DNA of 64,000 bases from Eledone cirrhosa (taxonomy: Eukaryota). Of this stretch, positions 1 through 54,715 are shown one piece after another. Positions within the stretch are counted from its first letter, which is position 1. Every line of letters begins with the position of its first letter. The notes beneath the pieces are model-generated. The model did no database searches, had not been told where the DNA came from, and saw nothing but the letters and a program-made list of their open reading frames with translations. The DNA is taken from contig OZ024742.1 of assembly GCA_964016885.1 (NCBI GenBank), positions 197,966,001 to 198,030,000 on the forward strand, read 5' to 3'. A program made the position numbers and the translations under genes.

Positions 1-407
1 GTATATGTATATATATATATATGTATATGTGTGTATATATATATATGTATATATATATATGTATATATATATGTATATGTATATATATATATTGTTATAT
101 TTGGGGAGGGTCATATTTGCGTAATATTGCCAGAATTAATAACAGAACACACTCACTGTTTGGTTGGTTTTCGCTTCTCGCTGTCTTTTATATATATATA
201 TCTGCGATCTAACTTACTCGGTCCTCAATGTTGCCATTGACTGACCGGCGGTCAAAAATAATACAGATACAATATAGACAAACACATATATATATAGTTT
301 ACATAATTTACATAAATCTTTCGTTGCACATCTGCAACATCGTCAGTGGTGTTATATTCATTGTTCCTCCTGTTGTGTTGTATGTCTACGCCATTTTTTT
401 TTGTTCA

Positions 408-2453
408 TGCAACCCCACATCACCAACACGAGCGAAGTTGCACAACTAACACACGATGGGAGAGAAAAAATCCTCAACGCTCACATGATGATGTGGACTG
501 ACATCCTAAAGCCAAGCAGACGCACTGCCAACAACTTCCAGGCGTCTAACAATGGCATACCACCCTTGTATGGGCTCCGCAAAGACCACAAGACAGTCGA
601 CGACCCGACAACGGAGCTAATATAGCTAGCAACTACAGGATCTCCTACTTCCTCTCAATGGTTATACGCCCCATAATCAAGATGTCCCCAGATGTATGTG
701 AAAGTACAGAGGACCTCCTCAGCAGAATCAGTGAGTGCAACAAAAACAGGAGCCTATCCAACTGCATAATAGGCAGCATGGATGTGGTGTCACTGTACCC
801 ATCCATCAACATTGATTTTGCTGTGAAAAGATGTGTGGAGATGATCATTGAGAGTGAGGTGGAGTTCTGCGACGTCGACACAGACGAACTGGGCCTCCTA
901 CTTAGACTTACCTACGACACTGACTACCTACACAGCCATGACCTTAGATGTTTCTGCCCTAGTAGACCTATAAGAGGTAGACCCCCCACCATAACCTCAA
1001 TGGCTAAAAAGACTCCCATAGGAAGGTGGATTGGGTGGACCAAAGCTATACGGACCCCCAAAACACTGATCAGGTAAGAAAAATGGTCGCACATGCAATA
1101 GGGGCTAGTATCAAAACTACCCTAAAGGGCCACATATTTAAGTTCAATGAGAAAATCTACACCCAAAATGAAGGAGCAGCCATCGGCGTCAGCATAGCTG
1201 GTGATGTTGCCAACCTTTTCATGGTATGGTGGGAAAGGAGACTTAAAGATCTCCTCCTTAATGAAAGCTCCATAGACCTCATCATGTACTCTCGTTATGT
1301 AGACGATATCAATATAGTTATAAGAACACCCCCACTAGAGAGCACTAACAAGTTTGATTTAGAACGTAGCACGATGGAAAGCATCCAGCAGATAGCTAAT
1401 TCCATACACCAGAGTATAACTGTAACTATAGACTTCCCTTCCAAACACCCTAACAATAGACTACCTGTATTAGACACAGAACTCTGGATTAACACTATAG
1501 ACGAGAGAGCCCAAATTCTCCACTCACACTATGCTAAACCCATGGCCTCCAAATACCTGATACTCAAAAACTCAGCAATGTCCAGTAGTGCTAAGTTTAA
1601 TATTCTGATCGCAGATTTGGTACGAGTGATGAAGAATATGTCCAGCATGTGCGACCCAACAGAAATGGAAGGACACATCCAACACTTCATCAACGGCATG
1701 CAGTTCTCTGGCTACAACCAAAGAGACAGAGTCAGAGTATACGAAGGAGCCATGGAAAAGTATAAGACCCTCATAGAACTGGACATGAAAGGAATTTGCC
1801 CACTATACAGGAGCAAATCATGGAATAGCTTAGATAGGGCTAGACATAAGATAGGGAAGGCCACATCATGGTACGACAACCAGAGATATCAGAGTGTCAT
1901 GTTTGTGGACGCCACCCCTGGAGGGAAATTAGCTAACCAGTGTAGAAAGGCCCTGAGAAAGACCCACTTAAAAATAAAGGTGGTAGAAAAGCCAGGAACC
2001 ACCATAAAATCCCTGATCAGCAAAACCTACCCTTTTAAGAAAACCCACTGTACCAATAGGAAATGTATCATATGTAAGGTGAACCCCCGGATAAACTGTA
2101 AAACTAGAAACGTAGTCTATAGCATAAGATGTACAGAGGGTACTTGCAGAAACACGACAACAACATACATAGGTGAGACAGCTCGTAGCATAGGTGAAAG
2201 GATAGATCAACACTGGGGGGAACTAAAAGGACGAAAAAACGGGTCAGTACTATACGAACATGCTAGACAACAACATGACAGTAACATAGACAACATAGAA
2301 ATTAGAATAATATCTAAACATAGGAATGACCCAGCAGATAGGCAAATCAGAGAGGCCAGTGAAATAGAAATTAGAAGACCAAAGCTAAACAGAAAGAATG
2401 AGTGGAACAACAACAACACCCAAACAAACAACACTGACCTAAGAGAAGTATAA
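408..2453 (+). pseudogene. PLE reverse transcriptase / GIY-YIG endonuclease, frameshifted and N-terminally truncated
   Basis: Consecutive ORFs 401-625 (LYGLRKDHK), 658-1077 (SMDVVSLYPSI) and 1026-2453 (GAAIG, RYVDD, CxxxxCxxC linker, [22 protein letters not shown]). Confidence 0.9.
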
Positions 2454-2724
2454 ATAATTAAGTAAATAAAATAAAATAAATAAAATAAGATAAATAAATA
2501 CATACACAAGCACATAAACACACACTAGTCACCCAGCAGACACAACACTATACACACTAGTCACACATCACACATAACACTATACACACACGCAAACGCA
2601 TGCGCAAAGAAGACAAAATAAAATAAGATAAACAAACAAGCAAATAAATAAATAAATATATAGACAGACTGAACAAAAAAAAAATGGCGTAGACATACAA
2701 CACAACAGGAGGAACAATGAATAT

Positions 2725-2770
2725 AACACCACTGACGATGTTGCAGATGTGCAACGAAAGATTTATGTAA
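2725..2770 (+). ncRNA. Hammerhead ribozyme motif (type I, degenerate stem I) in PLE-A pLTR; mirror copy ~308-353 on minus
   Basis: CTGACGA-T-GTTGCA-gatg-TGCAAC-GAAA-G-AT-TTA. It sits at the same relative position as the well-formed HHR at 31009-31053, but stem I pairs only 2 bp. Confidence 0.55.
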
Positions 2771-3071
2771 ATTATGTAAACTATATATATATGTGTTTGT
2801 CTATATTGTATCTGTATTATTTTTGACCGCCGGTCAGTCAATGGCAACATTGAGGACCGAGTAAGTTAGATCGCAGATATATATATATAAAAGACAGCGA
2901 GAAGCGAAAACCAACCAAACAATGAGTGTGTTCTGTTATTAATTCTGGCAATATTACGCAAATATGACCCTCCCCAAATATAACAATATCTGTTTCGACA
3001 CACGATTTCATATAAAAAACCTCGCAAAACTAATTCATCGCCGCTATATATATATATGTATATATATATGT

Positions 3072-7279: not shown

Positions 7280-9722
7280 TTAATTAGGTTTATAATATTT
7301 AAATGTTTTTTTTAGTTTATGATTACACGATATAATTAATTCCTGTCTTTTATTTAATAAGATATCCCTAGACTTCATTATTTCAAATAGTTCTTGGGAA
7401 CATAATCTACATTCCTTTCTATTATTTTGATAAGGGGTGGCTCTTTTGAGCACACTCCAGGTCAAATCATATTTTATATTTTTATTTTTATAACTATTGA
7501 TTTTTTCTGCTAGAGATGTTGTATTAGCCAGTGCGGCATTTTTAAAGCTATGTTTGTGGGTATTATACCTTGTCTTAAAATTGTTAGAGGTAGCTCCTAT
7601 ATATGAGCAAATAGAATCTTTAGTTTTAACATTACATTTATAGACTATGTTGTTAACAAGACAATTCCCTTTTAATGGGCAGTTTGTTTTGTTTCTACAG
7701 TTACATCCTTTCGTTAATTCTGTATTTGAGGAGATATTATTGTTAATTTGATGTACTGGTGGTATACTTATAGTTTTCTTACATTTATATGCATTATATG
7801 CACTTATATTTTGTTTTATGTTATTTGTTGTAGAATATGAGAATTTAACTGTAGACCTATTTAAGATTTGATGGTATTTGTGGTTTGGCGGGAAGTTTTT
7901 CTCAAGGATATAAAAAAATTTTTTAGCAATATTATCCTTAACTTGTAAATTAAAAGGAGCATTATACCAAGTAACTCGTCTATTACGGTTTCTATGTTGT
8001 TTATTATTTTTATTATTTTTATATGTTGTATCATGATTTTTACTAGGAGGAATAATGTTAATGATCTCACCACAACTATTTTTAGTTATATTTGTAGATT
8101 TAGGTGTTTTATCTTTTTTATTAGGAGTTTTATTATTAATATTTATTATAGTCTTATGATGAGTAGTTTTTTGAGGGTTACTATACTTTATATTAGAAGA
8201 TTTAGTATTTTGGGGTATACTGTGGGTGGCATTTAGGTGTGTACCTTTCATTTGGTGTTTGTTGGTAATATTATGCTGTATGTTTTCAGTATTTTTAGTA
8301 GAAGTTATATACTCTAATCTATTTTTGTGGCCACTTCTATCTAGAGCTTCATTATAAAAGGTCGCATTTTTATCAAATACATCTTGGTTAGAAGAAAGGT
8401 TAGAAATTCTAAGTGATATATTATATGCAAGGTTTTTTAAGGATAGATTTAGGGTGATTAGATTGTGAGTGTATGTAATGTAAGTTTTGGTTAGGTTTAT
8501 GGTAAGGTTGGTATATACCCGTAGCTAAATCTAAAGTTATATCTAGGAAATTTACTACTTTACTTGTTTTTTCAAAAGTAATATTAAGATTATAATAGTC
8601 CTTAAGGAAAGTTCTAATATGCTTTTTGTTTTTTTCGATTTCTGAAAGGCTAAGGTTGTTAGAAAGAAGAAGACAGTCATCACGATATAAACCACCTTTG
8701 AGGTGGGGAAAAGAGGCATTTATGTTGAAAAGGAGAAAGAGGCCCACAAGATCAGTAATTTGGGCAGAATCGCTTGAACCCATAGTAATATCAAAAAGAT
8801 TACAATAAGTGTTTCTGGTCCAGTATTCATTCTGAAATTCAATAAGTGTTTGTCTAGCATGTGTAATAATGTTAATGTCATCCGAAGTTAAATTAGATCT
8901 ATTTTTAGCAAATATTAATGCTTTGTTCAGGAGTATGGGTGATATAGAAGAATAATAGTTATCTATATCAAACTGTAGGAAAGAAGCAGAAGATTTACAC
9001 CTAATATTTTTAAACCAATTAATTACCTGGGAGGTGTTTTCCCAGAGTGGTAAAATAACGTATTTTCTTATTTGTGGGATGACTCTATCTAAAATTTTTT
9101 TGCTAATTATTCCAATATCTGATTTGGAGGGACATATAAGTCTAATAGAAGGATTAGAGTTAAAGTTAGATTTGTGATCTTTCAGGTTAAAGTGTGGACT
9201 TCTCAATGCCAAAGGTTCAGTTCTATCTTCAATATTTAGTTTTTTTACTATGTTGTGTGTTTTGTTGTTGATGTTGGTGAGTGACGCGTTATTAGATTTT
9301 TTATAACTTTTTCTGAGTTCTTTATATATGAACTCATTATAATGTTCGATATCCATATGATACAAGTTACCAGTTTTGTCCGAGTGGACATGGATTTTTT
9401 TAGACTTTTTTAGGTCCAATAGGGTAGAATCAAGGTCCTTTTGAAAGACGGATTTATACTTTTTAAATTTGAGATGTTTAATTAAATTAAAAAGGTCTTT
9501 CTCGAAGTCTTCAAGTAAAAAGTTGTGTGGTGGATTCTTGTAAGTGTTGAAATCATACATATATTTCCGATCTGCTTGTTTAGATTTTCTATCAAAGTGG
9601 TAGGCTCTCCATCTAACCCTTCTGATAAAATTATTAGTTTTCTGAATCATAAGGAGTAAGAAGTCGTCCTTAGAAGGTATTGGTATGTTTTTTAAGGAGG
9701 TTCCTAAATATTGTTTTTCCAT
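7280..9722 (-). pseudogene. Naiad RT/GIY-YIG ORF with a single +1 frameshift
   Basis: ORFs 8421-9743 and 7280-8251 match the intact plus-strand protein. A6 versus A5 at ..SILKK/SILKN could be a homopolymer sequencing error. Confidence 0.85.
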
Positions 9723-10399
9723 TGTGATATGGATGATGGACAATTGAAAGAGCTCAACTAAATGTATATGGGTTTACAAAATCATACATATATATATGTA
9801 TATACATAAATATAAAATTAATACACACATACAGTACAAAAATACGAATATTTCCGTGAAAATAGGAGCAAAATTATGTAGATAAATCTACCAAGAGTTT
9901 ACGGTAGTGTCCAATCCGTATGAAGAACTCAATGTATTCCGGATATCATGGAAAGAAGAGATGTAATGAAAATCCAATTTCGGTGAAAGATAAACGGTAT
10001 ACAGAGTCAAGATAAAATAAATAATGAACAAACAATTCCTTATATTAAACAAAAAAAGTTCACTATTTTTTGTTTAATATAAGGAATTGTTTGTTCATTA
10101 TTTATTTTATCTTGACTCTGTATACCGTTTATCTTTCACCGAAATTGGATTTTCATTACATCTCTTCTTTCCATGATATCCGGAATACATTGAGTTCTTC
10201 ATACGGATTGGACACTACCGTAAACTCTTGGTAGATTTATCTACATAATTTTGCTCCTATTTTCACGGAAATATTCGTATTTTTGTACTGTATGTGTGTA
10301 TTAATTTTATATTTATGTATATACATATATATATGTATGATTTTGTAAACCCATATACATTTAGTTGAGCTCTTTCAATTGTCCATCATCCATATCACA

Positions 10400-12841
10400 A
10401 TGGAAAAACAATATTTAGGAACCTCCTTAAAAAACATACCAATACCTTCTAAGGACGACTTCTTACTCCTTATGATTCAGAAAACTAATAATTTTATCAG
10501 AAGGGTTAGATGGAGAGCCTACCACTTTGATAGAAAATCTAAACAAGCAGATCGGAAATATATGTATGATTTCAACACTTACAAGAATCCACCACACAAC
10601 TTTTTACTTGAAGACTTCGAGAAAGACCTTTTTAATTTAATTAAACATCTCAAATTTAAAAAGTATAAATCCGTCTTTCAAAAGGACCTTGATTCTACCC
10701 TATTGGACCTAAAAAAGTCTAAAAAAATCCATGTCCACTCGGACAAAACTGGTAACTTGTATCATATGGATATCGAACATTATAATGAGTTCATATATAA
10801 AGAACTCAGAAAAAGTTATAAAAAATCTAATAACGCGTCACTCACCAACATCAACAACAAAACACACAACATAGTAAAAAAACTAAATATTGAAGATAGA
10901 ACTGAACCTTTGGCATTGAGAAGTCCACACTTTAACCTGAAAGATCACAAATCTAACTTTAACTCTAATCCTTCTATTAGACTTATATGTCCCTCCAAAT
11001 CAGATATTGGAATAATTAGCAAAAAAATTTTAGATAGAGTCATCCCACAAATAAGAAAATACGTTATTTTACCACTCTGGGAAAACACCTCCCAGGTAAT
11101 TAATTGGTTTAAAAATATTAGGTGTAAATCTTCTGCTTCTTTCCTACAGTTTGATATAGATAACTATTATTCTTCTATATCACCCATACTCCTGAACAAA
11201 GCATTAATATTTGCTAAAAATAGATCTAATTTAACTTCGGATGACATTAACATTATTACACATGCTAGACAAACACTTATTGAATTTCAGAATGAATACT
11301 GGACCAGAAACACTTATTGTAATCTTTTTGATATTACTATGGGTTCAAGCGATTCTGCCCAAATTACTGATCTTGTGGGCCTCTTTCTCCTTTTCAACAT
11401 AAATGCCTCTTTTCCCCACCTCAAAGGTGGTTTATATCGTGATGACTGTCTTCTTCTTTCTAACAACCTTAGCCTTTCAGAAATCGAAAAAAACAAAAAG
11501 CATATTAGAACTTTCCTTAAGGACTATTATAATCTTAATATTACTTTTGAAAAAACAAGTAAAGTAGTAAATTTCCTAGATATAACTTTAGATTTAGCTA
11601 CGGGTATATACCAACCTTACCATAAACCTAACCAAAACTTACATTACATACACTCACAATCTAATCACCCTAAATCTATCCTTAAAAACCTTGCATATAA
11701 TATATCACTTAGAATTTCTAACCTTTCTTCTAACCAAGATGTATTTGATAAAAATGCGACCTTTTATAATGAAGCTCTAGATAGAAGTGGCCACAAAAAT
11801 AGATTAGAGTATATAACTTCTACTAAAAATACTGAAAACATACAGCATAATATTACCAACAAACACCAAATGAAAGGTACACACCTAAATGCCACCCACA
11901 GTATACCCCAAAATACTAAATCTTCTAATATAAAGTATAGTAACCCTCAAAAAACTACTCATCATAAGACTATAATAAATATTAATAATAAAACTCCTAA
12001 TAAAAAAGATAAAACACCTAAATCTACAAATATAACTAAAAATAGTTGTGGTGAGATCATTAACATTATTCCTCCTAGTAAAAATCATGATACAACATAT
12101 AAAAATAATAAAAATAATAAACAACATAGAAACCGTAATAGACGAGTTACTTGGTATAATGCTCCTTTTAATTTACAAGTTAAGGATAATATTGCTAAAA
12201 AATTTTTTTATATCCTTGAGAAAAACTTCCCGCCAAACCACAAATACCATCAAATCTTAAATAGGTCTACAGTTAAATTCTCATATTCTACAACAAATAA
12301 CATAAAACAAAATATAAGTGCATATAATGCATATAAATGTAAGAAAACTATAAGTATACCACCAGTACATCAAATTAACAATAATATCTCCTCAAATACA
12401 GAATTAACGAAAGGATGTAACTGTAGAAACAAAACAAACTGCCCATTAAAAGGGAATTGTCTTGTTAACAACATAGTCTATAAATGTAATGTTAAAACTA
12501 AAGATTCTATTTGCTCATATATAGGAGCTACCTCTAACAATTTTAAGACAAGGTATAATACCCACAAACATAGCTTTAAAAATGCCGCACTGGCTAATAC
12601 AACATCTCTAGCAGAAAAAATCAATAGTTATAAAAATAAAAATATAAAATATGATTTGACCTGGAGTGTGCTCAAAAGAGCCACCCCTTATCAAAATAAT
12701 AGAAAGGAATGTAGATTATGTTCCCAAGAACTATTTGAAATAATGAAGTCTAGGGATATCTTATTAAATAAAAGACAGGAATTAATTATATCGTGTAATC
12801 ATAAACTAAAAAAAACATTTAAATATTATAAACCTAATTAA
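10400..12841 (+). CDS. Intact Naiad-clade Penelope-like RT + GIY-YIG endonuclease (813 aa from ATG 10400)
   Basis: Motifs SLKNIPIPS, DKT, LKDHK..NP..RLI.P.KS.IG.ISK.ILD, FDIDNYYSSI, MGS.DSA, GLYRDD, VNFLD, SNHP, CNC..CPL.G.C, IVY..YIG...FKTRY..H and C-terminal CxxC..LNKR.E...C.H. Confidence 0.93.
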   Translation: MEKQYLGTSLKNIPIPSKDDFLLLMIQKTNNFIRRVRWRAYHFDRKSKQADRKYMYDFNTYKNPPHNFLLEDFEKDLFNLIKHLKFKKYKSVFQKDLDSTLLDLKKSKKIHVHSDKTGNLYHMDIEHYNEFIYKELRKSYKKSNNASLTNINNKTHNIVKKLNIEDRTEPLALRSPHFNLKDHKSNFNSNPSIRLICPSKSDIGIISKKILDRVIPQIRKYVILPLWENTSQVINWFKNIRCKSSASFLQFDIDNYYSSISPILLNKALIFAKNRSNLTSDDINIITHARQTLIEFQNEYWTRNTYCNLFDITMGSSDSAQITDLVGLFLLFNINASFPHLKGGLYRDDCLLLSNNLSLSEIEKNKKHIRTFLKDYYNLNITFEKTSKVVNFLDITLDLATGIYQPYHKPNQNLHYIHSQSNHPKSILKNLAYNISLRISNLSSNQDVFDKNATFYNEALDRSGHKNRLEYITSTKNTENIQHNITNKHQMKGTHLNATHSIPQNTKSSNIKYSNPQKTTHHKTIININNKTPNKKDKTPKSTNITKNSCGEIINIIPPSKNHDTTYKNNKNNKQHRNRNRRVTWYNAPFNLQVKDNIAKKFFYILEKNFPPNHKYHQILNRSTVKFSYSTTNNIKQNISAYNAYKCKKTISIPPVHQINNNISSNTELTKGCNCRNKTNCPLKGNCLVNNIVYKCNVKTKDSICSYIGATSNNFKTRYNTHKHSFKNAALANTTSLAEKINSYKNKNIKYDLTWSVLKRATPYQNNRKECRLCSQELFEIMKSRDILLNKRQELIISCNHKLKKTFKYYKPN

Positions 12842-22723: not shown

Positions 22724-22972
22724 ATATATATATAAATGTAAGTATGCATGTATACGTACATACATATATGTATACAGACGTACAGTAGCATGCACATATA
22801 TATATATACATATATACATACATATGCATACAGGTACACATACATATATGCACGTATCAGTTTAGCGGCGCTAACGTCGCTTTGTTCGTTTGTAAACAAA
22901 CTGAACAGCCTGAATTTATGCCATACGGTGTTAAGGCAACCACGTCACCTTTTTGTTCAACACTGACACAGG

Positions 22973-23017
22973 AACGATGTACTAGTTTCAAGCTTGTTAG
23001 CTATCATCAGCACCGTT
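22973..23017 (-). ncRNA. Minimal type I hammerhead ribozyme (family A)
   Basis: Reverse complement of 23382-23426. Confidence 0.88.
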
Positions 23018-23297
23018 TACCCATCTGCCAGATAGTTGAACGTTCGAAAGTATATACTTTCCTTATGAAAATTAACGGCTGAGCAGCCTAATTTGCATAT
23101 TGAGTGAGTTAAATCGGTCAGGCATACCGAAAACGATAAATTGAAACAAAATGAAAACGAAATTTCATTTCTCACTCTTAGTATGGCACTTACTTAAATG
23201 TAAGTATGCATGTATACGTACATACATATATGTATACAGACGTTTCATTTTGTTTCAATTTATCGTTTTCGGTATGCCTGACCGATTTAACTCACTC

Positions 23298-23374
23298 AAT
23301 ATGCAAATTAGGCTGCTCAGCCGTTAATTTTCATAAGGAAAGTATATACTTTCGAACGTTCAACTATCTGGCAG
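23298..23374 (+). promoter_or_regulatory. Putative snRNA-type promoter cassette (octamer, PSE-like, TATA-like) upstream of family A HHR
   Basis: ATGCAAAT 23301-23308, TATATA 23343-23348, TGGCAG 26 nt later. A homologous block with the same spacing is at 46840-46917. Confidence 0.45.
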
Positions 23375-23381
23375 ATGGGTA

Positions 23382-23426
23382 AACGGTGCTGATGATAGCT
23401 AACAAGCTTGAAACTAGTACATCGTT
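23382..23426 (+). ncRNA. Minimal type I hammerhead ribozyme (family A); cleavage after GUA 23419
   Basis: AACGGTG-CTGATGA-T-AGCT-aaca-AGCT-T-GAAA-CTAG-TA-CATCGTT; 7-bp stem I, palindromic stem III ACTAGT. Confidence 0.9.
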
Positions 23427-23968
23427 CCTGTGTCAGTGTTGAACAAAAAGGTGACGTGGTTGCCTTAACACCGTATGGCATAAATTCAGGCTGTTCAGTT
23501 TGTTTACAAACGAACAAAGCGACGTTAGCGCCGCTAAACTGATACGTGCATATATGTATGTGTACCTGTATGCATATGTATGTATATATGTATATATATA
23601 TATATATGTGCATGCTACTGTACGTCTGTATACATATATGTATGTACGTATACATGCATACTTACATTTAAGTAAGTGCCATACTAAGAGTGAGAAATGA
23701 AATTTCGTTTTCATTTTGTTTCAATTTATATATATATATGTATATATATATGTATATATATATATATGTATACATATATATGTATTTATATGTGTATATA
23801 TATATGTATATAAATATGTATATATATATATGTATATATATATGTATATATATATGTATGTATATGTATATATATGTGTATATATATGTATATGTATATA
23901 TATGTATATGTATATATATATGTATATGTATATATATTTATGTATATATATGTGTATATATATATATG

Positions 23969-24015
<47 letters not shown>

Positions 24016-24246
24016 GTATATATATATATATGTATATTTATATATGTATATATATATGTATATATATGTATATATATATATGTATATATATATGTGTATA
24101 TATGTATGTATTAGAATTGGAGCTCTGAAATAGCAATATATATATGGATGTATATATAATGTATTTTGCAATACACTTTATGCTTAATTAAAAGCATTTT
24201 GAAGACCGTAAGCTATTGTTTTAAAGTAGTGACAAATTCACTCACT

Positions 24247-24343
24247 TTGATCTCAGCAAACAGGGGAGATAAGCCGAAATTTCATGTTTCGCTTTTGTTG
24301 AAGCTTATCAAGGCCAACTACCCCGCCTGTCTACTGAGATCAA
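24247..24343 (-). ncRNA. Hammerhead variant (U3-A8 core UUGAUAA) on long rod; cleavage triplet mutated in this copy
   Basis: Minus strand reads GGGGTAGTTGGCC-TTGATAA-GCTT-caacaa-AAGC-GAAA-CATG-AAATTTCGGC. Confidence 0.55.
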
Positions 24344-24702
24344 TGATGTTATATTCTTATAGAAATCTAGTAAATAATCAGGATCTGATTATGCAGAGCG
24401 GTTGTTGGTCAGGCAGAAATTAAAAATTAGAATTGGAGCTCTGAAATAGCAATATATATATGGATGTATATATAATGTATTTTGCAATACACTTTATGCT
24501 TAATTAAAAGCATTTTGAAGCCGTAAGCTATTGTTTTAAAGTAGTGACAAATTCACTCACTTTGATCTCAGCAAACAGGGGAGATAAGCCGACATGACAT
24601 TTCAGAGCTCCAATTCTAATTTTTAATTTCTGCCTGACCAACAACCGCTCTGCATAATCAGCTCCTGATTATTTACTAGATTTCTATAAGAATATAACAT
24701 CA

Positions 24703-24799
24703 TTGATCTCAGTAGACAGGCGGGGTAGTTGGTCTTGATAGGCTTCAACAAAAGCGAAACATGTCATGTCGGCTTATCTCCCCTGTTTGCTGAGATCAA
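24703..24799 (+). ncRNA. Hammerhead variant (family B) with ~30-bp extended stem I; GUC at 24763-24765
   Basis: TTGATAG-GCTT-caacaa-AAGC-GAAA-CATG-TC; palindromic stem III ACATGT; rod TTGATCTCAGTAGACAGG/CCTGTTTGCTGAGATCAA. Confidence 0.62.
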
Positions 24800-24935
24800 A
24801 GTGAGTGAATTTGTCACTACTTTAAAACAATAGCTTACGGTCTTCAAAATGCTTTTAATTAAGCATAAAGTGTATTGCAAAATACATTATATATACATCC
24901 ATATATATGTATATATATATATATGTATATATATG

Positions 24936-25004
<69 letters not shown>

Positions 25005-25256
25005 GTATATATATATATATGTATATATATGTATATATATGTATATATATGTATATATATGTATATATATATGTATATATACATGTATATATATGTATAT
25101 ATATGTGTATATATATATGTATATATATGTGTATATGTATATATATATATGTATATATATGTGTATATGTGTATATGTATATATATATATGTATATATAT
25201 GTGTATATGTATATATATATATGTATATATATATATGTATATATATGTGTATATGT

Positions 25257-25864
25257 GTCAGGTCACCAGTTGGTGCTACTGGTAACATGTATCCCAGTAC
25301 AACCTGTCCCATGGTCGGGTCATTGGCGACTAAACTGGCAACCTCACCAAGGTTTCTTGGTGAGGAGGGTGACTTTGGACATCCTGCAGGACTAAAAACG
25401 AAACCTGTCAAAGGGCAAAGGAGCTCTTAAGAGTCAATGACCATTCAAAATCACCGGGAGAGATGACCCCTTAGCCTTTGTCAAGGCAGAATTCTAGGAG
25501 AAGGAAAACTCTGATATAACACCTGCAACCCTGATGGTATCCAATGATGTTGACTTGTTCTTCTTTTTGGTAAATATCATCTTGGTTAAGAGAGTGGGAC
25601 TGGCTTTGTGCAGTGCCTTTGCTCACTATAAAAGCTTCACGGCACAGGCATTGCTTTATATCTGGAGATCTCTCTGCACTTGTCGTCACATGGTACCATG
25701 GGCCCAGCACTGTGTCAATAATTGTCACAAGTGTAGTGTTTGTACCAGAGTTTACAAGTCGCTGGCTGGACTAAAAAGTCTCACTTGTTCAGCGCATCGG
25801 TAGGGGTTCTCCTACATGGATATAAAGTAGTGGCCGTACTCGAAAACGAGTTGGCAGCCACCAT
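25257..25864 (+). mobile_element. ~605-bp non-autonomous bipartite RTE-derived element, copy 1
   Basis: Four copies with shared ends. The middle resembles the RTE 5' UTR at 53722-53945. The 3' part encodes a CxxC..S..GL.SH...H remnant and ends GGCAGCCACC-ATGT. Confidence 0.7.
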
Positions 25865-26321: not shown

Positions 26322-26486
26322 GAGATAGATAAAATACACGGGTGTGTATGATTGTGTATAGAAGATTATATTAAGAAGAGGAATTCCAACTTTGTCTGAT
26401 TTACTCGTTTTATTTACAATCCTTTAAAATTTATAGTGGTATTATAATGAAATAGTATGATAGAATATTAAATGTTAAGTGTTAAT

Positions 26487-26525
26487 TGAACAAGTACTTT
26501 CATGCTTTCGCAATCTTCAGGTTCA
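26487..26525 (-). ncRNA. Minimal type I hammerhead ribozyme (39 nt)
   Basis: TGAAC-CTGAAGA-T-TGC-gaaa-GCA-T-GAAA-GTAC-TT-GTTCA; palindromic stem III AAGTACTT. Confidence 0.88.
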
Positions 26526-26910
26526 TAATGTGTGGTGACAGTCAAGTTTGCAATTTTCAACTGTAATGAGATGGCTAAATTTTGTACCTTATATACAGTG
26601 AAAAGTGGCTCCAGAATGCTATATCTTGCAAACTGTATTTCGACCAATCGGTGTGTAGTTTCACTGAATTACTAAAGCTGATTGGTTTAGGCATCGCGGT
26701 TGGTTGAAAATGTCTAATGACCACTAATTGATCCTATCCAAAGCATCAATTGTTTTGCTATTTTTAGAAATGATGAAAATAGCATTTTCTAGTAATCATC
26801 ACAATCAACATCACTTTTATTATTATTATTATTGTTGTTGTTGTTGTTAGTGGTGGTAGTCGACATGGTTGTAGGCGTAGTCATAGTAGGAGTAATACCC
26901 CTAAGCATAA

Positions 26911-29200
26911 TTATTGTTCATTTAGCTTGGGTTTGAATTTATCAATAAAATTCTTTTCTTTGATTTTTCTCTTGATTTCACTTGGGCTGTGTAATTTGTA
27001 GAATGGGAATATTATAAATATTCCCTGTCCACATGTTGCTAGATGGTTTCTTAGGGGTATCTGATGGACATTTAGGTCTCTGATTTGCTGACGGTGTACC
27101 CGTGCACGTTCCAATAGTGCATTTCCAGTTTGACCGACATATAGTTCTTCACAATTCGGCCATTTAATGCAGTAAATTAGATTTCTGCTTTTGCAGTTCA
27201 TATTTGCATTTGGGAATGTTTTTCCAGTTTTTATTTTCATATATTGACCGGCGTGTATGGATTGATATGTGCCGCATCGACTATCATTGCATTTAGATAC
27301 AGTGAATGATTGGTCTTTGTTGTTAAGGTCAAACTTTGCCTCTGTTAGTAATTGCTTCAAATTTTTCGGCTGTCTTTTACTAAGAGTCAAAGATCGATCT
27401 GTGATTAAGCCTTTTAATTCATTACTTTGAACAATGATCGGTAGGTTTGCTTTGGCAGTGTTGAAGATATTCTGGTGACATGGGTTGTGTGTCATTATAA
27501 ATGGGTTGACCAGTTCTTGGTTTCTTCTTCCTTGGGTTGTCCTAAGTTGTTGTATAGGTATTTTTATAGCCCGCTGTATGCCATTTTCTATAAGTAGAGA
27601 TGGGTATTTTTGTTTGAGCAAAAATTCTCTTAGTTCTGTTAGGCGTTTGTACCTGGTATTCGTATCTTCTACAATGGTACAAATTCTTCTAGCTAGACAG
27701 TATGGGATGTTGCGTTTTGTATGAGGTGGATGGCACGACTTAAAATTCAGATATTGATGGGTATCTGTGTGTTTATAATATATATCCGTGGTAATGGTGG
27801 TGTCGTTTTTGATTATCATTATATCTAGGAATGGTAATTTGGTCCTACTCATCTCTTTTGTGAATTGGAGAGATGGGTGTAGGTTATTCAGGAGGATATT
27901 GAACTCATCCATAGTATCTAGAGATTCTGTCCAGATGATGAAACAGTCGTCAAGGTATCTCTTCCAAGATTTTTCAATGTACTTTCTAAAGTCAGTACTA
28001 TATTTTTCCTCTATTTTTTGGTAGAGTTGTTGTTCTAAGTATCCCATTACAGACTTCGCGTAAACGGGAGCAAACTTCGTTCCCATCGCTGTGCCTCTAA
28101 TTTGGATGTAATTCTTTCCATTGAAGAAGAAAGTGTTGTTTTCTAGAATAAGTTTAACTGCGTCTAATATAATTGGCGCTGTGAATCTGATGGGAATCAC
28201 TTATCTATGTTTTTCCACCCAGTATTTAACCGCCTTTATTCCTAAATCATGTGTAATGTTGGTGTAAAGGCTTACCACATCAAAACTAAGTAGAAGTGAA
28301 TTCGTTTCCGTGGTTTTGGGAAGATGGGACAGGAAGTCGATATCATCCCGGATGAAACTGGGTATGTGAATACATAGTGGTTTCAAAATAATGTCAACAA
28401 AATTGCTTAGACGGTGGGTGGGGCATGTTGGACCAGCTATAATAGGTCTAAGTTTTAAGTCTTTTGGGTGTAGTAATTTAATGTACTCACTGTTTTGTTC
28501 TCTTACTGCCAGTTGTATTTCTTTTGACTTATGAACTTTCGGTAGGCCATACAGGTTGCAGGTTTTGGCTCAAAATTGGTGATGTAGTCTCTTTCCTTAT
28601 CAGTAAGTGAGTTGTGGTATTTTGAAGCCAGGTTGTTGATCTTCTTCATGATGTTGTGGTCTATATTTGACGGTATTTCATGATAGAATGTGTCTTTCAG
28701 TTGTTCTTCAACCAAATCCTTGTAGTATTCAGCATCCATTATAACAACTGCACCCCCTTTATCTGCTTGTTTAATTATTATTGTTTTATCATTTTGTATA
28801 CGTTTAAGTGCAGACATTTCTGATTTGTTAATGTTTGGCCTAACATTAGTATTACGTCTAAGAGGAAATTTAGACAGGATGTCAATGTATTGGTCGAGAT
28901 AGATATTTCTTCCTTTTGGCGGAGTGAAATTTGATTTATTTTTTACTAGTGATTCATCACTCTCATTACTTTTATCAGCGAAGAATTCTACAAGACGTAA
29001 TTTTCGACAGAATTCTTGGGTATCCTCCTTCAGTTCTTGATGGTTGACTGCTGGAGTCGGTGTGAATTTCAGTCCTTTTGACAGAATTTGCATTTCATCA
29101 TTGTCAAGATCTCTTTTGGATAAATTAATTATTTTAGGATCTACGTGTACAGTTGTTTTGGGTATGTTTCCTTCTGGAGTTTTTCTTTTTCCGGTTTTTG
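26911..29200 (-). pseudogene. PLE RT/GIY-YIG, frameshifted
   Basis: LSKGLKFTPTP, ADKGG, FDVVSLYTNI, GTAMGT, RYLDD, SCHP, C...RC linker, LIY..LYVGQTG, E..I....P.LN. Confidence 0.9.
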
Positions 29201-29258
29201 TTGTCCTGACGTTAAAAAATGGATTTTTCTCTGTTCAGGATTTATATTCCTGTTGGTG

Positions 29259-30844: not shown

Positions 30845-32251
30845 ATTGTTATACTTTGGGAGGGTCATGTTGCCAATAAGAAACACACGCACCAGTTGCT
30901 TTCACTTCAATTTATTATATATTTATAAATTTATAAATTTACAAATCTACAAATTTATAAATTTCTGGTTGGTTGGTTGGTTCCACAACCAGATAGTTGT
31001 TTATATATAGTCATAGTCCTTTCGTCACACACTCTGTGACCTCTTCAGTGACTGGGGATTCCTTTCTTTGTTTCTGTGCCTTTCCTTTCTTCTGTCCTAC
31101 GCCATTTTGTTTCTGTGTGTGTGTTGTGTGCTGAGTTTGCGCATGCGCCACATCCAGGTGTCTGTGTGTGTTTGTGTTCATTTATCTATTTGTTTATTTA
31201 TTTACATGTTGTTGGTTGGTTGTTTATTCTATGTGTGTGTGTGTTTTCATTTTGTCCTTAATTGTAAGTTGTGATGTTGCTGTTCCACTCATATTTTCTA
31301 TTTAATTTTGGTTGTAATTCTTTTATGTTTACTGCCTCTGTAATTTGTCTAAACATTGCATCTTTTCTGTGTGTAGATTCTATTTTTATTTCTATGTTCT
31401 CTAATTTATCCTTGTGTTCTATCTTAGCATGTTGGTAGAGTACATATGATTCTTTATTATCTTGAAGGTCTCGCCAGTGTTCATTTATCCGTTCCCCTAT
31501 ACTACGAGCTGTCTCACCTATGTACACTATATTTTTGTTTCTACATTGTCCTTCAGTACATCTTATGCTATACACTACATTTCTAGTTTTACAGTTAATA
31601 TGCGGGCTTATTTTACAGGTTATACATTTCTTATCTATACATGAGGGTCTTTGGAACGGGTATGTCTTGCTAATAAGTGTTTTTACGGAGGTACCTGGTC
31701 TTTCTACTATCTTAATATTGAGTTTATGTTTATTTATGGCCCTTCTAAATTTGTAGGCTAGTTCGCCTCTAGGGGTTGTATCGATGAACATTACACTCTG
31801 GTATTTATTGCTATCATACCATGAGTTTATTCTATTGGCCTTGTTCCTAGTTCTTTCTATTCTATTCCAAAATTTGCTCCTATACAAGGGGCAGGTCCCA
31901 TTTATGTCATTATTTACCATTTTTTCCCATTTGGTTCTGGCTCCTCTATACACTCTGATTCTATCTCTCTGATTGTAGCCAGAGAACTGCATACGGTGGA
32001 TGAAGTGTTGTATGTGTCTCTCTAGTTCTTCGGGGTTGCACATGCGGGACACATTTCTCATCACCCGTACCAAATCCGCAATCAGTATGTTGATTTTGGT
32101 ATGGTCCGAAATGGCCGAGTTTCGGTGGATCAGATGTTTGGAAGTCATGGGTTTGGCATAATTGGCAACATGACCCTCCCAAAGTATAACAATATCGGTT
32201 TCAACACACGATTTCAGATAAAGAATCTTGCTAAACAAATTCAGAAACGAA
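30845..32251 (-). mobile_element. PLE-A-related fragment (thumb + GIY-YIG) with short inverted 5' end plus tail
   Basis: 31258-32160 encodes [27 protein letters not shown], similar to 1026-2453. 30845-30877 is inverted at 32161-32193, with a tail to 32251. Confidence 0.88.
31009..31053 (-). ncRNA. Minimal type I hammerhead ribozyme
   Basis: AGTCA-CTGAAGA-G-GTCACA-gagtg-TGTGAC-GAAA-G-GA-CTA-TGACT. Confidence 0.78.
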
Positions 32252-32409: not shown

Positions 32410-32845
32410 GTATATGTATATGTATATATAGATGTATATAGATGTATATATATATATATATGTATATATAGATGTATATATATATATGTATATGTATATA
32501 TATATGTATATATATATGTATATGTATATATATATATGAATATATATATATATGTATATGTATATATATATGTATATGTATATATATATGTATATATATA
32601 TGTATATATAGATGTATATATATGTATATATAGATGTATATATATAGATGTATATATATGTATATATAGATGTATATATATAGATGTATATATATGTATA
32701 TATAGATGTATATATATATATATATCTATATATAGATGTATATATATATGTGTATGTATATGTAGATGTATATATATATGTATATGTATATATAGATGTA
32801 TATATATATATGTATATGTATATATAGATGTATATATATATATAT

Positions 32846-33453
32846 GTCAGGTCACCAGTTGGTGCTACTGGTAACATGTATCCCAGTACAACCTGTCTCA
32901 TGGTCGGGTCGTTGGCGTCTAAACTGGCAACCCCACCAAGGTTTCTTGGTGAGGAGGGTGACTTTGGACATCCTGCAGGACTAAAAACAAAACCTGTCAA
33001 AGGGCAAGGGAGCTCTTAAGACTCAATAGCCATCCAAAATCACCGGGAGAGATGACTCCTTAGCCTTTGTCAAGGCAGAATTCTAGGAGAAGGAAAACTC
33101 TGATATAACACCTGCAACCCTGATGGTATCCAATGATGTTGACTTGTTCTTCTTTTTGGTAAATATCATCTTGGTTAAGAGAGTGGGACTGGCTTTGTGC
33201 AGTGCCTTTGCTCACTATAAAAGCTTCACAGCACAGGCATTGCTTTATATCTGGAGATCTCTCTGCACTTGTCATCACATGGTACCATGGGCCCTGCACT
33301 ATGTGTCAATAATGGTCACAAGTGTAGTGTTCGTACCAGAGTTTTTAAGTCGCTGGCTGGACTAAAAAGTCACATTCGTTCAGCGCATCGGTAGGGGTTC
33401 TCCTACATGGATATAAAGTAGTGGCCGTACTCGAAAACGAGTTGGCAGCCACC

Positions 33454-33455
<2 letters not shown>
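32846..33455 (+). mobile_element. Bipartite RTE-derived element, copy 2
   Basis: High similarity to 25257-25864. Confidence 0.7.
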
Positions 33456-34189: not shown

Positions 34190-34619
34190 ATGTATACGTA
34201 CATACATATATGTATACAGACGTACAGTAGCATGCATATATATATATATATATATATACACATACATATATGTACGTATCAGTTTAGCGGACGTTTATTA
34301 TAACGCCCGCTTTGTCCGTTTGTAAACAAACTGACAGCCTGAATTTATACCGTACGGTGTTAAGGCAACCACGTCACCTTTTTATTCAACACTGACACAG
34401 GAACGATGTACTAGTTTCAAGCTTCTTTGCTATCATCAGCACCGTATACCCTTCTGCCAGATGGTTGAACGTTCGAAAGTATATACTTTCCTTATGAAAA
34501 TTAACGGCTGAGCAGCCTAATTTGCATATCGAGTGAGTTCAGTCGGCCAGGCGCACCGAAAAAGATAAGTTGTAATAAAATGAAAACGAAATTTCATTTC
34601 TCACTCTTAGTACGGCACT
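34190..34619 (-). mobile_element. Diverged family A monomer with HHR at 34402-34445
   Basis: Aligns with 22748-23190. Core CTGATGA-T-AGC-aaagaa-GCT-T-GAAA-CTAG-TA is intact. Confidence 0.82.
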
Positions 34620-35410
34620 GTGGAGCGTGGAGAACAATAGCACGCAAAGACAAAACCGCGTAAATGGTATAGCAGAAGTCGTAGACTAAAATTAATCTCC
34701 GCTACAGAGTTAAGAACAAAGTAAATAAATACAATACAGAAGTAATAGAAACAAATAAATACATACATGCAAACAGATACGTACATACACAAGCATACGC
34801 AAAACCTTACCATAGGTATACAAAACCACGCACATATAAATGTGTGTGTGTGTGTATGCTTGTGTACAAATAAATAAATAAATAATTATATCAACATATA
34901 TAAGTAAATAAATACGTATATAACAAGCGCACACGCATACCTACATATAAATACACGAATGTTCGGAGACTAAAACAAGAAGTACACATATACACACACC
35001 CACCATACGTACGAACCTGCATACTCACGCAGACGCAAAACTCCCGTATACACATAGCCAAACCCTAAATACCAGACTATGTAAAAATTATACGCCATAA
35101 CAGTCAAATATACGTACGAGAAGGTATACATACCTTCACAAAACATACGGGTAATCTATACTTACCTATGCAAATAACTAAAGGAATAAACAAAACATAT
35201 ACTTAGCTCCCACATCAAGACGTAAAATATCCACGTATAGATGGTGCTATCCGTTAGGGTATAACGTGGGGCTGTAATACAGGAAAGTTTTGTGCAATTT
35301 ATGTTTACAAGCCGAAATTGCCTCAGATTTTTTGTTTAAGATTTGGTCTGTGGCGTAGAGTATTTCCAGGGCCTCAGCGGCGCAGAGATCACATGGTCTT
35401 TTATTTCCGA
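34620..35410 (-). mobile_element. Second Naiad-type family: ORF C-terminus and 3' UTR
   Basis: 35247-35410 encodes CDLCAAEALEI..ILNKKSEAISACKHKLHKTFLYY, matching the C-terminus of the 813-aa ORF. Confidence 0.8.
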
Positions 35411-54107: not shown

Positions 54108-54715
54108 ATGGTGGCTGCCAACTCGTTTTCAAGTACGGCCACTACTTTATATCCATGTAGGAGAACCCCTACCAATGCGCTGAACGAGTGTCACTTTTTA
54201 GTCCAGCCAGCAACTTGAAAACTCTGGTACAAACACTACACTTGTGACAATTATTGACACAGTGCTGGGCCCATGGTACCATGTGACGACAAGTGCAGAG
54301 AGATCTGCAGATATAAAGCAATGCCTGTGCCGTGAAGCTTTTATAGTGAGCAAAGGCACTGCACAAAGCCAGTCCCACTCTCTTAACCAAGTTGATATTT
54401 ACCAAAAAGAAGAACAAGTCAACATCATTGGATACCATCAGGGTTGCAGGTGTTATATCAGAGTTTTCCTTCTCCTAGAATTCTGCCTTGACAAAGGCTA
54501 AGGGGTCATCTCTCCCGGTGATTTTGGATGGCCATTGACTCTTAAGAGCTCCTTTGCCCTTTGACAGGTTTCGTTTTTAGTCCTGCAGGATGTCCAAAGT
54601 CACCCTCCTCACCAAGAAACCTTAGTGGGGTTGCCAGTTTAGTCGCCAACGACCCGACCATGAGACAGGTTGTACTGGGATACATGTTACCAGTAGCACC
54701 AACTGGTGACCTGAC
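54108..54715 (-). mobile_element. Bipartite RTE-derived element, copy 3, with (TATG)n tail
   Basis: Reverse complement of 25257-25864. Confidence 0.7.

What the first reader, a model, noticed from the sequence alone, without database searches (positions are those of the whole stretch)
24110..24908. Retrozyme family B: 316-nt unit with a U3-A8 hammerhead on a viroid-like rod
Seen: the core reads UUGAUAA (24305-24311, minus) or UUGAUAG (24735-24741) instead of CUGANGA. Stem II is GCUU/AAGC, stem III is palindromic, the triplet is GUC, stem I is ~30 bp and G-U rich, and several more hairpins surround it. The minus arm 5' end lies 3-5 nt from the predicted cut. Known: the 3-8 tertiary pair can covary. 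Caveat: each complete copy has a defect and the base of stem I is mismatched. The units differ from each other within one insertion, implying heterogeneous templates.
Basis: partly seen in the sequence, partly recalled or inferred. Interest (0 to 1): 0.72.

Follow-up and report, generated by a model that had tools for sequence, protein, structure and literature searches.

The report
Retrozyme lineage with switched hammerhead core
This is one damaged copy of an abundant non-coding jumping repeat whose hammerhead RNA motif swapped a core base pair once (C-G to U-A) and kept it through several later waves of spreading; the RNA is predicted to stay folded shut as a single unit and to cut itself in pairs, and it is likely copied into the genome by Penelope-type transposon enzymes.

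Summary
Real. The window holds a two-armed insertion of a 316-nt non-coding unit with a type I hammerhead motif. The U3-A8 core is fixed in the family: at least 1,077 of 1,084 exact matches, none C3-G8. Across a wider superfamily, 4,272 of 5,107 motifs are U3-A8 and 637 are C3-G8. Rooted on a C3-G8 outgroup, U3-A8 arose once and persisted through six subfamilies while stems I-III changed compensatorily. Corrections: the cut is at the second GUC, the base of stem I is paired, 5' junctions ignore the cut, only a third of the unit is rod-like, and mixed templates are not needed. Monomers are predicted self-blocked; in this subfamily the double hammerhead is the best dimer fold. Insertions carry a Penelope footprint: (TA)n targets, 5'-to-5' arms, and one short plus one tailed end in 57 of 59. 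Cleavage and circular RNA are untested. Retrozymes and natural U3-A8 hammerheads are both published, and this scan already noted the two-armed layout in other families of this genome. New: the rooted core switch and the candidate blocking helix.

The parts
24110..24425 (-). Complete 316-nt unit of the tailed arm; its 3' end faces the left (TA)n tract
24110..24135 (-). 26-nt tail beyond the internal AT tract, present on this arm only
24247..24342 (-). Hammerhead domain closed by the long stem I; the only rod-like part of the unit
24272..24315 (-). Type I hammerhead motif, copy 1: core UUGAUAA at 24305-24311, C17 at 24276; G16.2>U and two loop III changes, likely defective
24426..24600 (-). 5'-truncated second unit of the tailed arm; crosses the cut site (24591|24590); 1-nt deletion
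24599..24600 (.). 5'-to-5' junction of the two arms with 2 nt of microhomology
24599..24908 (+). Short-end arm: last 22 nt of one unit plus 288 nt of the next, ending in the unit's AT tract
24731..24774 (+). Type I hammerhead motif, copy 2: core UUGAUAG at 24735-24741 (A9>G, likely defective), C17 at 24770
23727..24109 (.). Left (TA)n-type target tract, shared with the neighbouring 466-nt hammerhead element
24909..25258 (.). Right (TA)n-type target tract

Best explanation
It is a damaged genomic copy of a young non-coding retrozyme subfamily whose hammerhead motif has a U3-A8 core pair; the RNA is predicted to be folded shut as a monomer and to cut itself as a double hammerhead, and it is likely inserted by Penelope-type enzymes. 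Shown from sequence: the unit, the two-armed layout, the fixed U3-A8 core, its single origin from C3-G8, compensatory change in all three stems, and the end rule shared with local Penelope-like elements. Predicted by folding: the blocked monomer and the dimer switch through the palindromic stem III. Inferred: tandem copies are transcribed; multimers self-cleave at the second GUC; monomers are ligated to circles; a Penelope RT/GIY-YIG complex opens a (TA)n tract and primes cDNA from both target ends at two fixed RNA sites 26-33 nt apart; the two cDNAs run through the cut site and join 5' to 5'. My odds: hammerhead active in intact copies 0.8; Penelope-type mobilisation 0.85; circular rather than linear multimeric template 0.55; blocking helix under selection 0.5.
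For: Core fixed: 6 of 1,084 matches differ at position 3 and 1 at position 8. Superfamily: 4,272 U3-A8, 637 C3-G8, 198 other of 5,107. Structure on 42 diverged copies: 95.0% of cells paired, against 33-46% for slid controls; both-sided changes in 16 of 30 pairs. Rooted tree: U3-A8 clade 100/99, nested in C3-G8 groups; C3-G8 as one clade rejected, p-AU 0.006. Youngest subfamily 0.6% from its majority line. For this subfamily the best dimer fold is the double hammerhead (-23.3 against -13.4 kcal/mol for two monomers). The fifth stem III pair cannot form in a monomer hairpin, yet changes A-U to G-C. Layout: 76 of 108 clusters are 5'-to-5', none purely 3'-to-3'; 57 of 59 classifiable two-armed insertions have one short and one tailed end, P = 3e-15; two Penelope-like copies and the 466-nt family in this window follow the same rule. 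Direct junctions to Penelope-like or 466-nt arms in 5 of 27 single-orientation clusters. Published support: PMC7229834, PMC8557442, PMC3088659, PMC4209133, preprint 10.64898/2026.07.22.740005.
Against: No cleavage assay and no RNA data. Both complete window copies are defective. The 3-8 covariation is one evolutionary event, so copy counts overstate it. No Penelope element homologous to the unit was found (best nhmmer E outside the unit 0.34, window only; tail likeness to PLE tails not significant). The chimera excess is modest (P 0.004 to 0.06 by choice of background), and deletions between neighbouring insertions could give the same junctions. Chimeras do not all obey the one-tail rule (L046 and L135 do; L066, L114, L183, L186 do not). 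No A>G strand bias in private changes (21 against 20 T>C). In four of seven subfamily lines (S1, S3, S4, S5) and also S2 the free dimer fold is not the double hammerhead. One preprint found cleavage in only 1 of 9 predicted retrozyme dimers.
Confidence: 0.78

Rival explanations
1. Same element and same Penelope-type machinery, but the template is a linear multimeric transcript from a genomic array; cleavage and circles play no part in copying.
For: The tail end behaves like a fixed RNA 3' end: 45 of 80 tails stop at one base, and two tails join directly to another element in sense (L114, L183). A few private changes are shared by only some units (4 of 93). A long array exists at C2:207.69-207.71 Mb.
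Against: Insertion-specific marks fixed in all units, often in both arms (L029 5 of 5, L199 7 of 7, L112, L223), fit one circle, although a homogeneous array would also give them. Arms reach six or more units.
Confidence: 0.35
2. The hammerhead is vestigial: U3-A8 lowered or abolished activity and the lineage spreads on its 3' priming element alone.
For: Predicted share of the active fold in the monomer is below 1% in all U3-A8 subfamily lines. Insertion ends ignore the cut site.
Against: After the switch the core stayed constant through six subfamilies while stems I, II and III changed on both sides. U3-A8 ribozymes were reported active in vitro (PMC3088659, section 8, citing a paper I did not read).
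Confidence: 0.12
3. The copies are 3' fragments (pseudo-LTRs) of an autonomous Penelope-like element with a U3-A8 hammerhead, as described for Schistosoma Cercyon elements.
For: Identical insertion footprint. U3-A8 occurs in Penelope terminal repeats (PMC4209133). A preprint derives retrozymes from such repeats.
Against: Arms run through up to seven whole tandem units without coding sequence. In 114 merged regions, searched with four window proteins, no RT reading frame lay in sense directly upstream of a unit arm. The genome was not searched exhaustively.
Confidence: 0.07
4. A DNA-level satellite or fold-back repeat, spread by recombination or hairpin copying, with a chance hammerhead-like motif.
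For: Local arrays show higher-order duplication (L024).
Against: Dispersed over many contigs with fixed strand-specific ends. RNA covariation including G-U pairs. Fold-back on the first cDNA is excluded because the short arm is longer than the tailed arm in 32 of 57.
Confidence: 0.02

Closest known systems
Metazoan non-LTR retrozymes (coral, mussel, axolotl; Cervera and de la Pena 2020, PMC7229834, parts 2-4 of 6 read; Li, Clavereau and Pollet 2026, preprint 10.64898/2026.07.22.740005, parts 1-3 of 5 read)
   Same: Tandem AT-rich non-coding units of 170-400 nt, one type I hammerhead per unit, thousands of copies, palindromic helix III suggesting dimer cleavage, co-occurrence with Penelope-like elements.
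   Different: U3-A8 core. Predicted self-blocked monomer, which that paper reports for plant retrozymes, viroids and only some mussel circles. Two-armed insertions with a one-tail rule are not described in the parts read. Cleavage and circles not shown here.
Natural U3-A8 hammerheads (Perreault 2011, PMC3088659, section 8 and passages; Schistosoma mansoni Cercyon PLE minimal hammerheads, about 1,300 hits, Cervera 2014, PMC4209133, passages)
   Same: The same compensatory core pair.
   Different: There: scattered examples or mostly single minimal motifs. Here: a full hammerhead with a 4-5 bp helix III in tandem units, at least 4,272 copies, with a rooted C3-G8 ancestry.
EN+ Penelope-like elements (Craig 2021, PMC8557442, passages read)
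   Same: Partial tandems, an inverted 5'-truncated copy, a tail often at one end only, (TA)n bias, hammerheads near the 3' end.
   Different: No RT or GIY-YIG frame. Tail 26-33 nt against 30-40 nt reported. No detectable homology to the Penelope-like copies in the window.
Hammerhead viroids and plant LTR retrozymes (as summarised in PMC7229834 and PMC4209133)
   Same: Size range; ribozyme predicted blocked in the monomer; double-hammerhead cleavage.
   Different: Genome-encoded DNA repeat; motif on one strand only; unit not a full rod; no evidence for RNA-to-RNA replication or infectivity.

Membership tests
Metazoan non-LTR retrozyme | Tandem repeats of about 170-400 nt, below 50% GC, many loci | tested here: met
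   316-nt period, about 36% GC over 279 counted positions, 129 matches listed on many contigs
Metazoan non-LTR retrozyme | One type I hammerhead per unit | tested here: met
Metazoan non-LTR retrozyme | Non-coding, no LTR pair | tested here: met
   No frame of 100 aa lies inside the unit; layout is tandem and inverted. PBS and PPT were not searched.
Metazoan non-LTR retrozyme | Self-cleavage of the transcript | not testable with these tools
   Covariation and folding only
Metazoan non-LTR retrozyme | Accumulates as circular RNA | not testable with these tools
Metazoan non-LTR retrozyme | Target-site duplication | tested here: inconclusive
   72 of 74 two-armed insertions have TA-rich sequence on at least one side, 44 on both, which hides any duplication
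Type I hammerhead ribozyme | Core N3 UGA N7 N8 A / GAAA / UH with a Watson-Crick 3-8 pair | tested here: met
   4,909 of 5,107 superfamily motifs have U-A or C-G; both complete window copies carry another defect
Type I hammerhead ribozyme | Three helices with compensatory change | tested here: met
   93-98% of cells paired per helix; both-sided changes in each
Type I hammerhead ribozyme | Loop 1-loop 2 tertiary contact | not tested
   Loop II resembles that of HH9 in the Rfam alignment and stem I has an internal loop; the contact was not modelled
Rfam Hammerhead_HH9 (RF02275) | Gathering score 52 bits | tested here: not met
   25.3 and 22.9 bits for the two window copies
Autonomous Penelope-like element | RT plus GIY-YIG reading frame | tested here: not met
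Penelope-type insertion footprint | Inverted 5'-truncated arm, tail at one end, (TA)n target | tested here: met
   features from PMC8557442
Hammerhead viroid | Ribozymes in both polarities | tested here: not met
   Rfam hits on one strand of the unit only
Hammerhead viroid | Autonomous RNA-to-RNA replication, no DNA form | tested here: not met
   Thousands of DNA copies; RNA-to-RNA copying itself not testable

The most novel reading that the evidence does not exclude
The superfamily records a ribozyme off-switch being kept intact while its catalytic core changed. Core base 3 also pairs, with its neighbours, to the 5' strand of stem III in a blocking helix. After C3 became U3 that pair went C-G, U-G, U-A, and the next pair went U-A, U-G, C-G, in subfamily order. 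The monomer circle would thus be protected, cleavage would need two units pairing through the palindrome, and one Penelope complex would copy the protected circle from both ends of a (TA)n break at two sites 26-33 nt apart.
Probability: 0.35. Interest if true: 0.72.

Novelty: new variant of a known kind. Interest (0 to 1): 0.54.

Why it matters
It gives an ordered natural series, in one genome, of a hammerhead before and after a change in its catalytic core, with matched intact copies to assay. That makes testable whether U3-A8 costs activity and what compensates for it. It also offers an answer to a question raised in PMC7229834, how animal retrozyme circles avoid cutting themselves. Searches that demand CUGANGA would miss 84% of this superfamily's motifs. 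The end rule and the chimeric junctions add genomic evidence for the proposed, unproven, mobilisation of retrozymes by Penelope-like elements.

Tried and rejected
RNA evidence: no RNA holder listed; the runs laid were contigs of unknown kind and were used only for sequence variants and leads. Rfam over the whole window gave only microsatellite-driven miRNA hits among the 150 of 377 rows shown. First GUC as cut site: rejected, it exists only in the two youngest subfamilies and leaves stem I unpaired. 5' junctions at the cut: not enriched. Fold-back on the first cDNA: rejected. L1-style twin priming with non-overlapping arms: rejected, the arms overlap and tailed-arm 5' ends are scattered. A-to-I editing scars: none. 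Homology to the neighbouring 466-nt family: collinear but marginal (best score 59 against a shuffle maximum of 57.5; the other two lines below the shuffle maxima; nhmmer E > 5). Homology of the tail to Penelope tails: not significant (75 and 78 of 500 shuffles as good in the best cases; two comparisons used the wrong strand and were redone). A search for C3-G8 motifs with this subfamily's stem III start found 11 hits of unrelated families. Ages alone could not root the tree (oldest subfamilies all 3-4%), so an outgroup was used. The plus-arm pair probabilities were mis-indexed and are not used. Papers: searches found none describing this family, a retrozyme with U3-A8, or such a blocking helix. 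The library lacks most subscription papers, Repbase was not available, and no supplements were opened; those of PMC7229834, PMC4209133 and the preprint may list such motifs.

Full report
What is in the window. The element spans 24110-24908 between two (TA)n-type tracts. The left arm is on the minus strand: one whole 316-nt unit and a 5'-truncated second unit. The right arm is on the plus strand: 22 nt plus 288 nt. The arms meet 5' to 5' at 24599-24600 and both 3' ends face outward. Rfam gives weak HH9 hammerhead hits at both complete motifs, below the gathering score. The cores read as reported. Each complete copy has a defect: G16.2>U in the minus copy, A9>G in the plus copy.

The family. The window lies in a 3.0-Gb animal genome. 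An exact pattern with positions 3, 7 and 8 free matched 1,084 times, the reversed control 0 times. Six matches differ from U at position 3 and one differs from A at position 8; none has C3-G8. A loop II variant adds 712 matches, and the 100 listed all have A8. In the first 30 loci, 65 of 68 copies read UUGAUAA and 67 of 68 GUC.

The superfamily. Variants in coded DNA runs pointed to relatives, which were fetched from the genome. A looser pattern gives 5,107 motifs: 4,272 U3-A8, 637 C3-G8 and 198 others. These are lower bounds for motifs that fit the pattern. The copies fall into subfamilies with different stems II and III. The window's subfamily is the youngest (median 0.6% from its majority line, 26 regions); the oldest sampled are at 3-4%. 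On 42 hand-picked diverged copies the hammerhead structure is paired in 95.0% of cells, against 33-46% for slid controls, with both-sided changes in 16 of 30 pairs. Cells count sequences, not events.

Direction of the switch. C3-G8 and U3-A8 copies are split by one branch. A 310-nt family (15,233 matches) is collinear with the unit at 62-66% identity and has C3-G8. Rooted on it, U3-A8 is a derived clade (100/99) inside C3-G8 groups, and a single C3-G8 clade is rejected (p-AU 0.006; 32 rows). The outgroup branch is long, but parsimony gives C3-G8 as ancestral under either arrangement. So the covariation is one event, followed by persistence through six subfamilies.

The cut site. This subfamily's stem III is ACAUGUCAUGU followed by C, with GUC twice. 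Across 39 young two-armed insertions, 3 of 78 5' ends lie within 10 nt of the cut, 5.2 expected, and arms cross the cut repeatedly. The template is therefore not a cleaved linear monomer.

Folding. A natural unit identical to the majority folds at z = -6.3 linear and -5.4 circular; the other strand reaches -2.1. About 100 nt around the hammerhead form one long hairpin in which the core is paired; the rest is short hairpins. The active fold lies 0.7 kcal/mol above the minimum in the C3-G8 line and 2-7 above it in U3-A8 lines. On the bare motif, a helix between bases 2.1-5 and the 5' strand of stem III is the minimum in five of seven lines. It is paired in 95.8% of cells, with C-G, U-G and U-A at 3-15.4 and U-A, U-G and C-G at 2.1-15.5. 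This rests on about four substitutions, each also tied to stem I or III, and the youngest subfamily breaks one pair and uses another blocked fold; I give selection on it even odds. Stem III is self-complementary in every subfamily, including a pair too close to form in a monomer. For the two youngest subfamilies the best dimer fold is the double hammerhead; for the other five it is not, though it equals or beats two monomers. These energies ignore tertiary contacts and Mg2+.

Insertion footprint. Of 108 clusters in 114 merged regions, 76 are 5'-to-5', 30 single-orientation and 2 complex (a few are segmental duplicates, and loci were chosen by motif searches). Of 74 uncut two-armed insertions, 57 have one end at the internal AT tract and the other 26-33 nt further on, 2 have two short ends, none has two tails, and 15 have an end that could not be classed (P = 3e-15 on 59). 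Two Penelope-like copies and the 466-nt hammerhead element in this window show the same short-plus-tail ends, and three Penelope-like copies carry C3-G8 hammerhead-like cores in their 3' regions. Their proteins resemble RT and GIY-YIG families (Pfam weak; atlas). PMC8557442 describes inverted arms, a one-sided tail and (TA)n bias for such elements. Five of 27 single-orientation clusters join directly to a Penelope-like or 466-nt arm, and two more tails do so. The excess is modest and deletion could mimic it.

Templates. In 33 insertions of the youngest subfamily (121 units; the long array left out), shared markers were fixed across covering units in 34 of 52 cases, and private changes were single-unit in 85 of 93, fixed in 4 and partial in 4. 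Both arms therefore usually come from one template type. The window's seven differences (0.9%) match the subfamily's age. A circle and a homogeneous multimer both fit. One site, C145, differs in 12 of 94 units and 8 of the first 100 genome matches and is unexplained.

Comparison and verdict. On every feature testable from DNA it is a non-LTR retrozyme (PMC7229834); cleavage and circles are untested. Natural U3-A8 is in print (PMC3088659; PMC4209133). A Penelope link is proposed in PMC7229834 and argued in a 2026 preprint. The scan's own notes already describe the two-armed layout for other families in this genome; a look-up by this sequence and one by U3-A8 words returned nothing. What I did not find in the papers searched is a retrozyme lineage with this core, its rooted history, and the blocking helix. 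New variant of a known kind; interest 0.54.

Noticed in passing
window 22737-23728; also 34270-34700: A second two-armed hammerhead element with a 466-nt unit and canonical CUGAUGA core (23389 plus, 23010 minus, 34439 minus) sits in the same (TA)n tract and obeys the short-plus-tail rule.
   Followed up: partly
window 100-3050 and 30846-32250: Two Penelope-like copies with C-terminal GIY-YIG-like region and a CX4CxxC linker (Neptune-like by the motif in PMC8557442), each with an inverted arm, one tail and a minimal hammerhead-like core in the 3' region.
   Followed up: partly
window 7280-12841: An uninterrupted 830-codon Penelope-like frame (10349-12841) with a large inverted copy; Pfam found no family.
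   Followed up: no
window 26330-29234: A further Penelope-like copy in pieces on the minus strand with a CUGAAGA hammerhead-like core at 26520.
   Followed up: partly
window 25258-25863, 32845-33454 and near 54170-54470: A 606-nt non-coding element inserted in (TA)n tracts, three copies in the window and more in fetched loci; no hammerhead core found by the relaxed scan.
   Followed up: no
unit position 145 (window 24281, 24596, 24765): Hot spot changing to A, G or U in single units; it pairs with G5 in the predicted blocked fold, and each change raises the predicted active share 25- to 70-fold.
   Followed up: partly
L046:1429-1434, L066:1536, L135:1328, L170, L183:1344, L114:1307-1325, L186:1409: Junctions without a TA spacer between this superfamily and three Penelope-like families or the 466-nt family, some with 1-3 nt of microhomology.
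   Followed up: partly
G000:C2:207687000-207706000 (L018-L027): A long single-strand array of 316- and 304-nt units with higher-order repeats; a candidate source locus or a local expansion.
   Followed up: no
L229-L248: The 310/311-nt family (15,233 matches) is a collinear relative with C3-G8 and a minimal helix III, and forms much longer arms.
   Followed up: partly
L068-L078: Unrelated C3-G8 hammerhead-like motifs with GC-rich stem II; not characterised.
   Followed up: no
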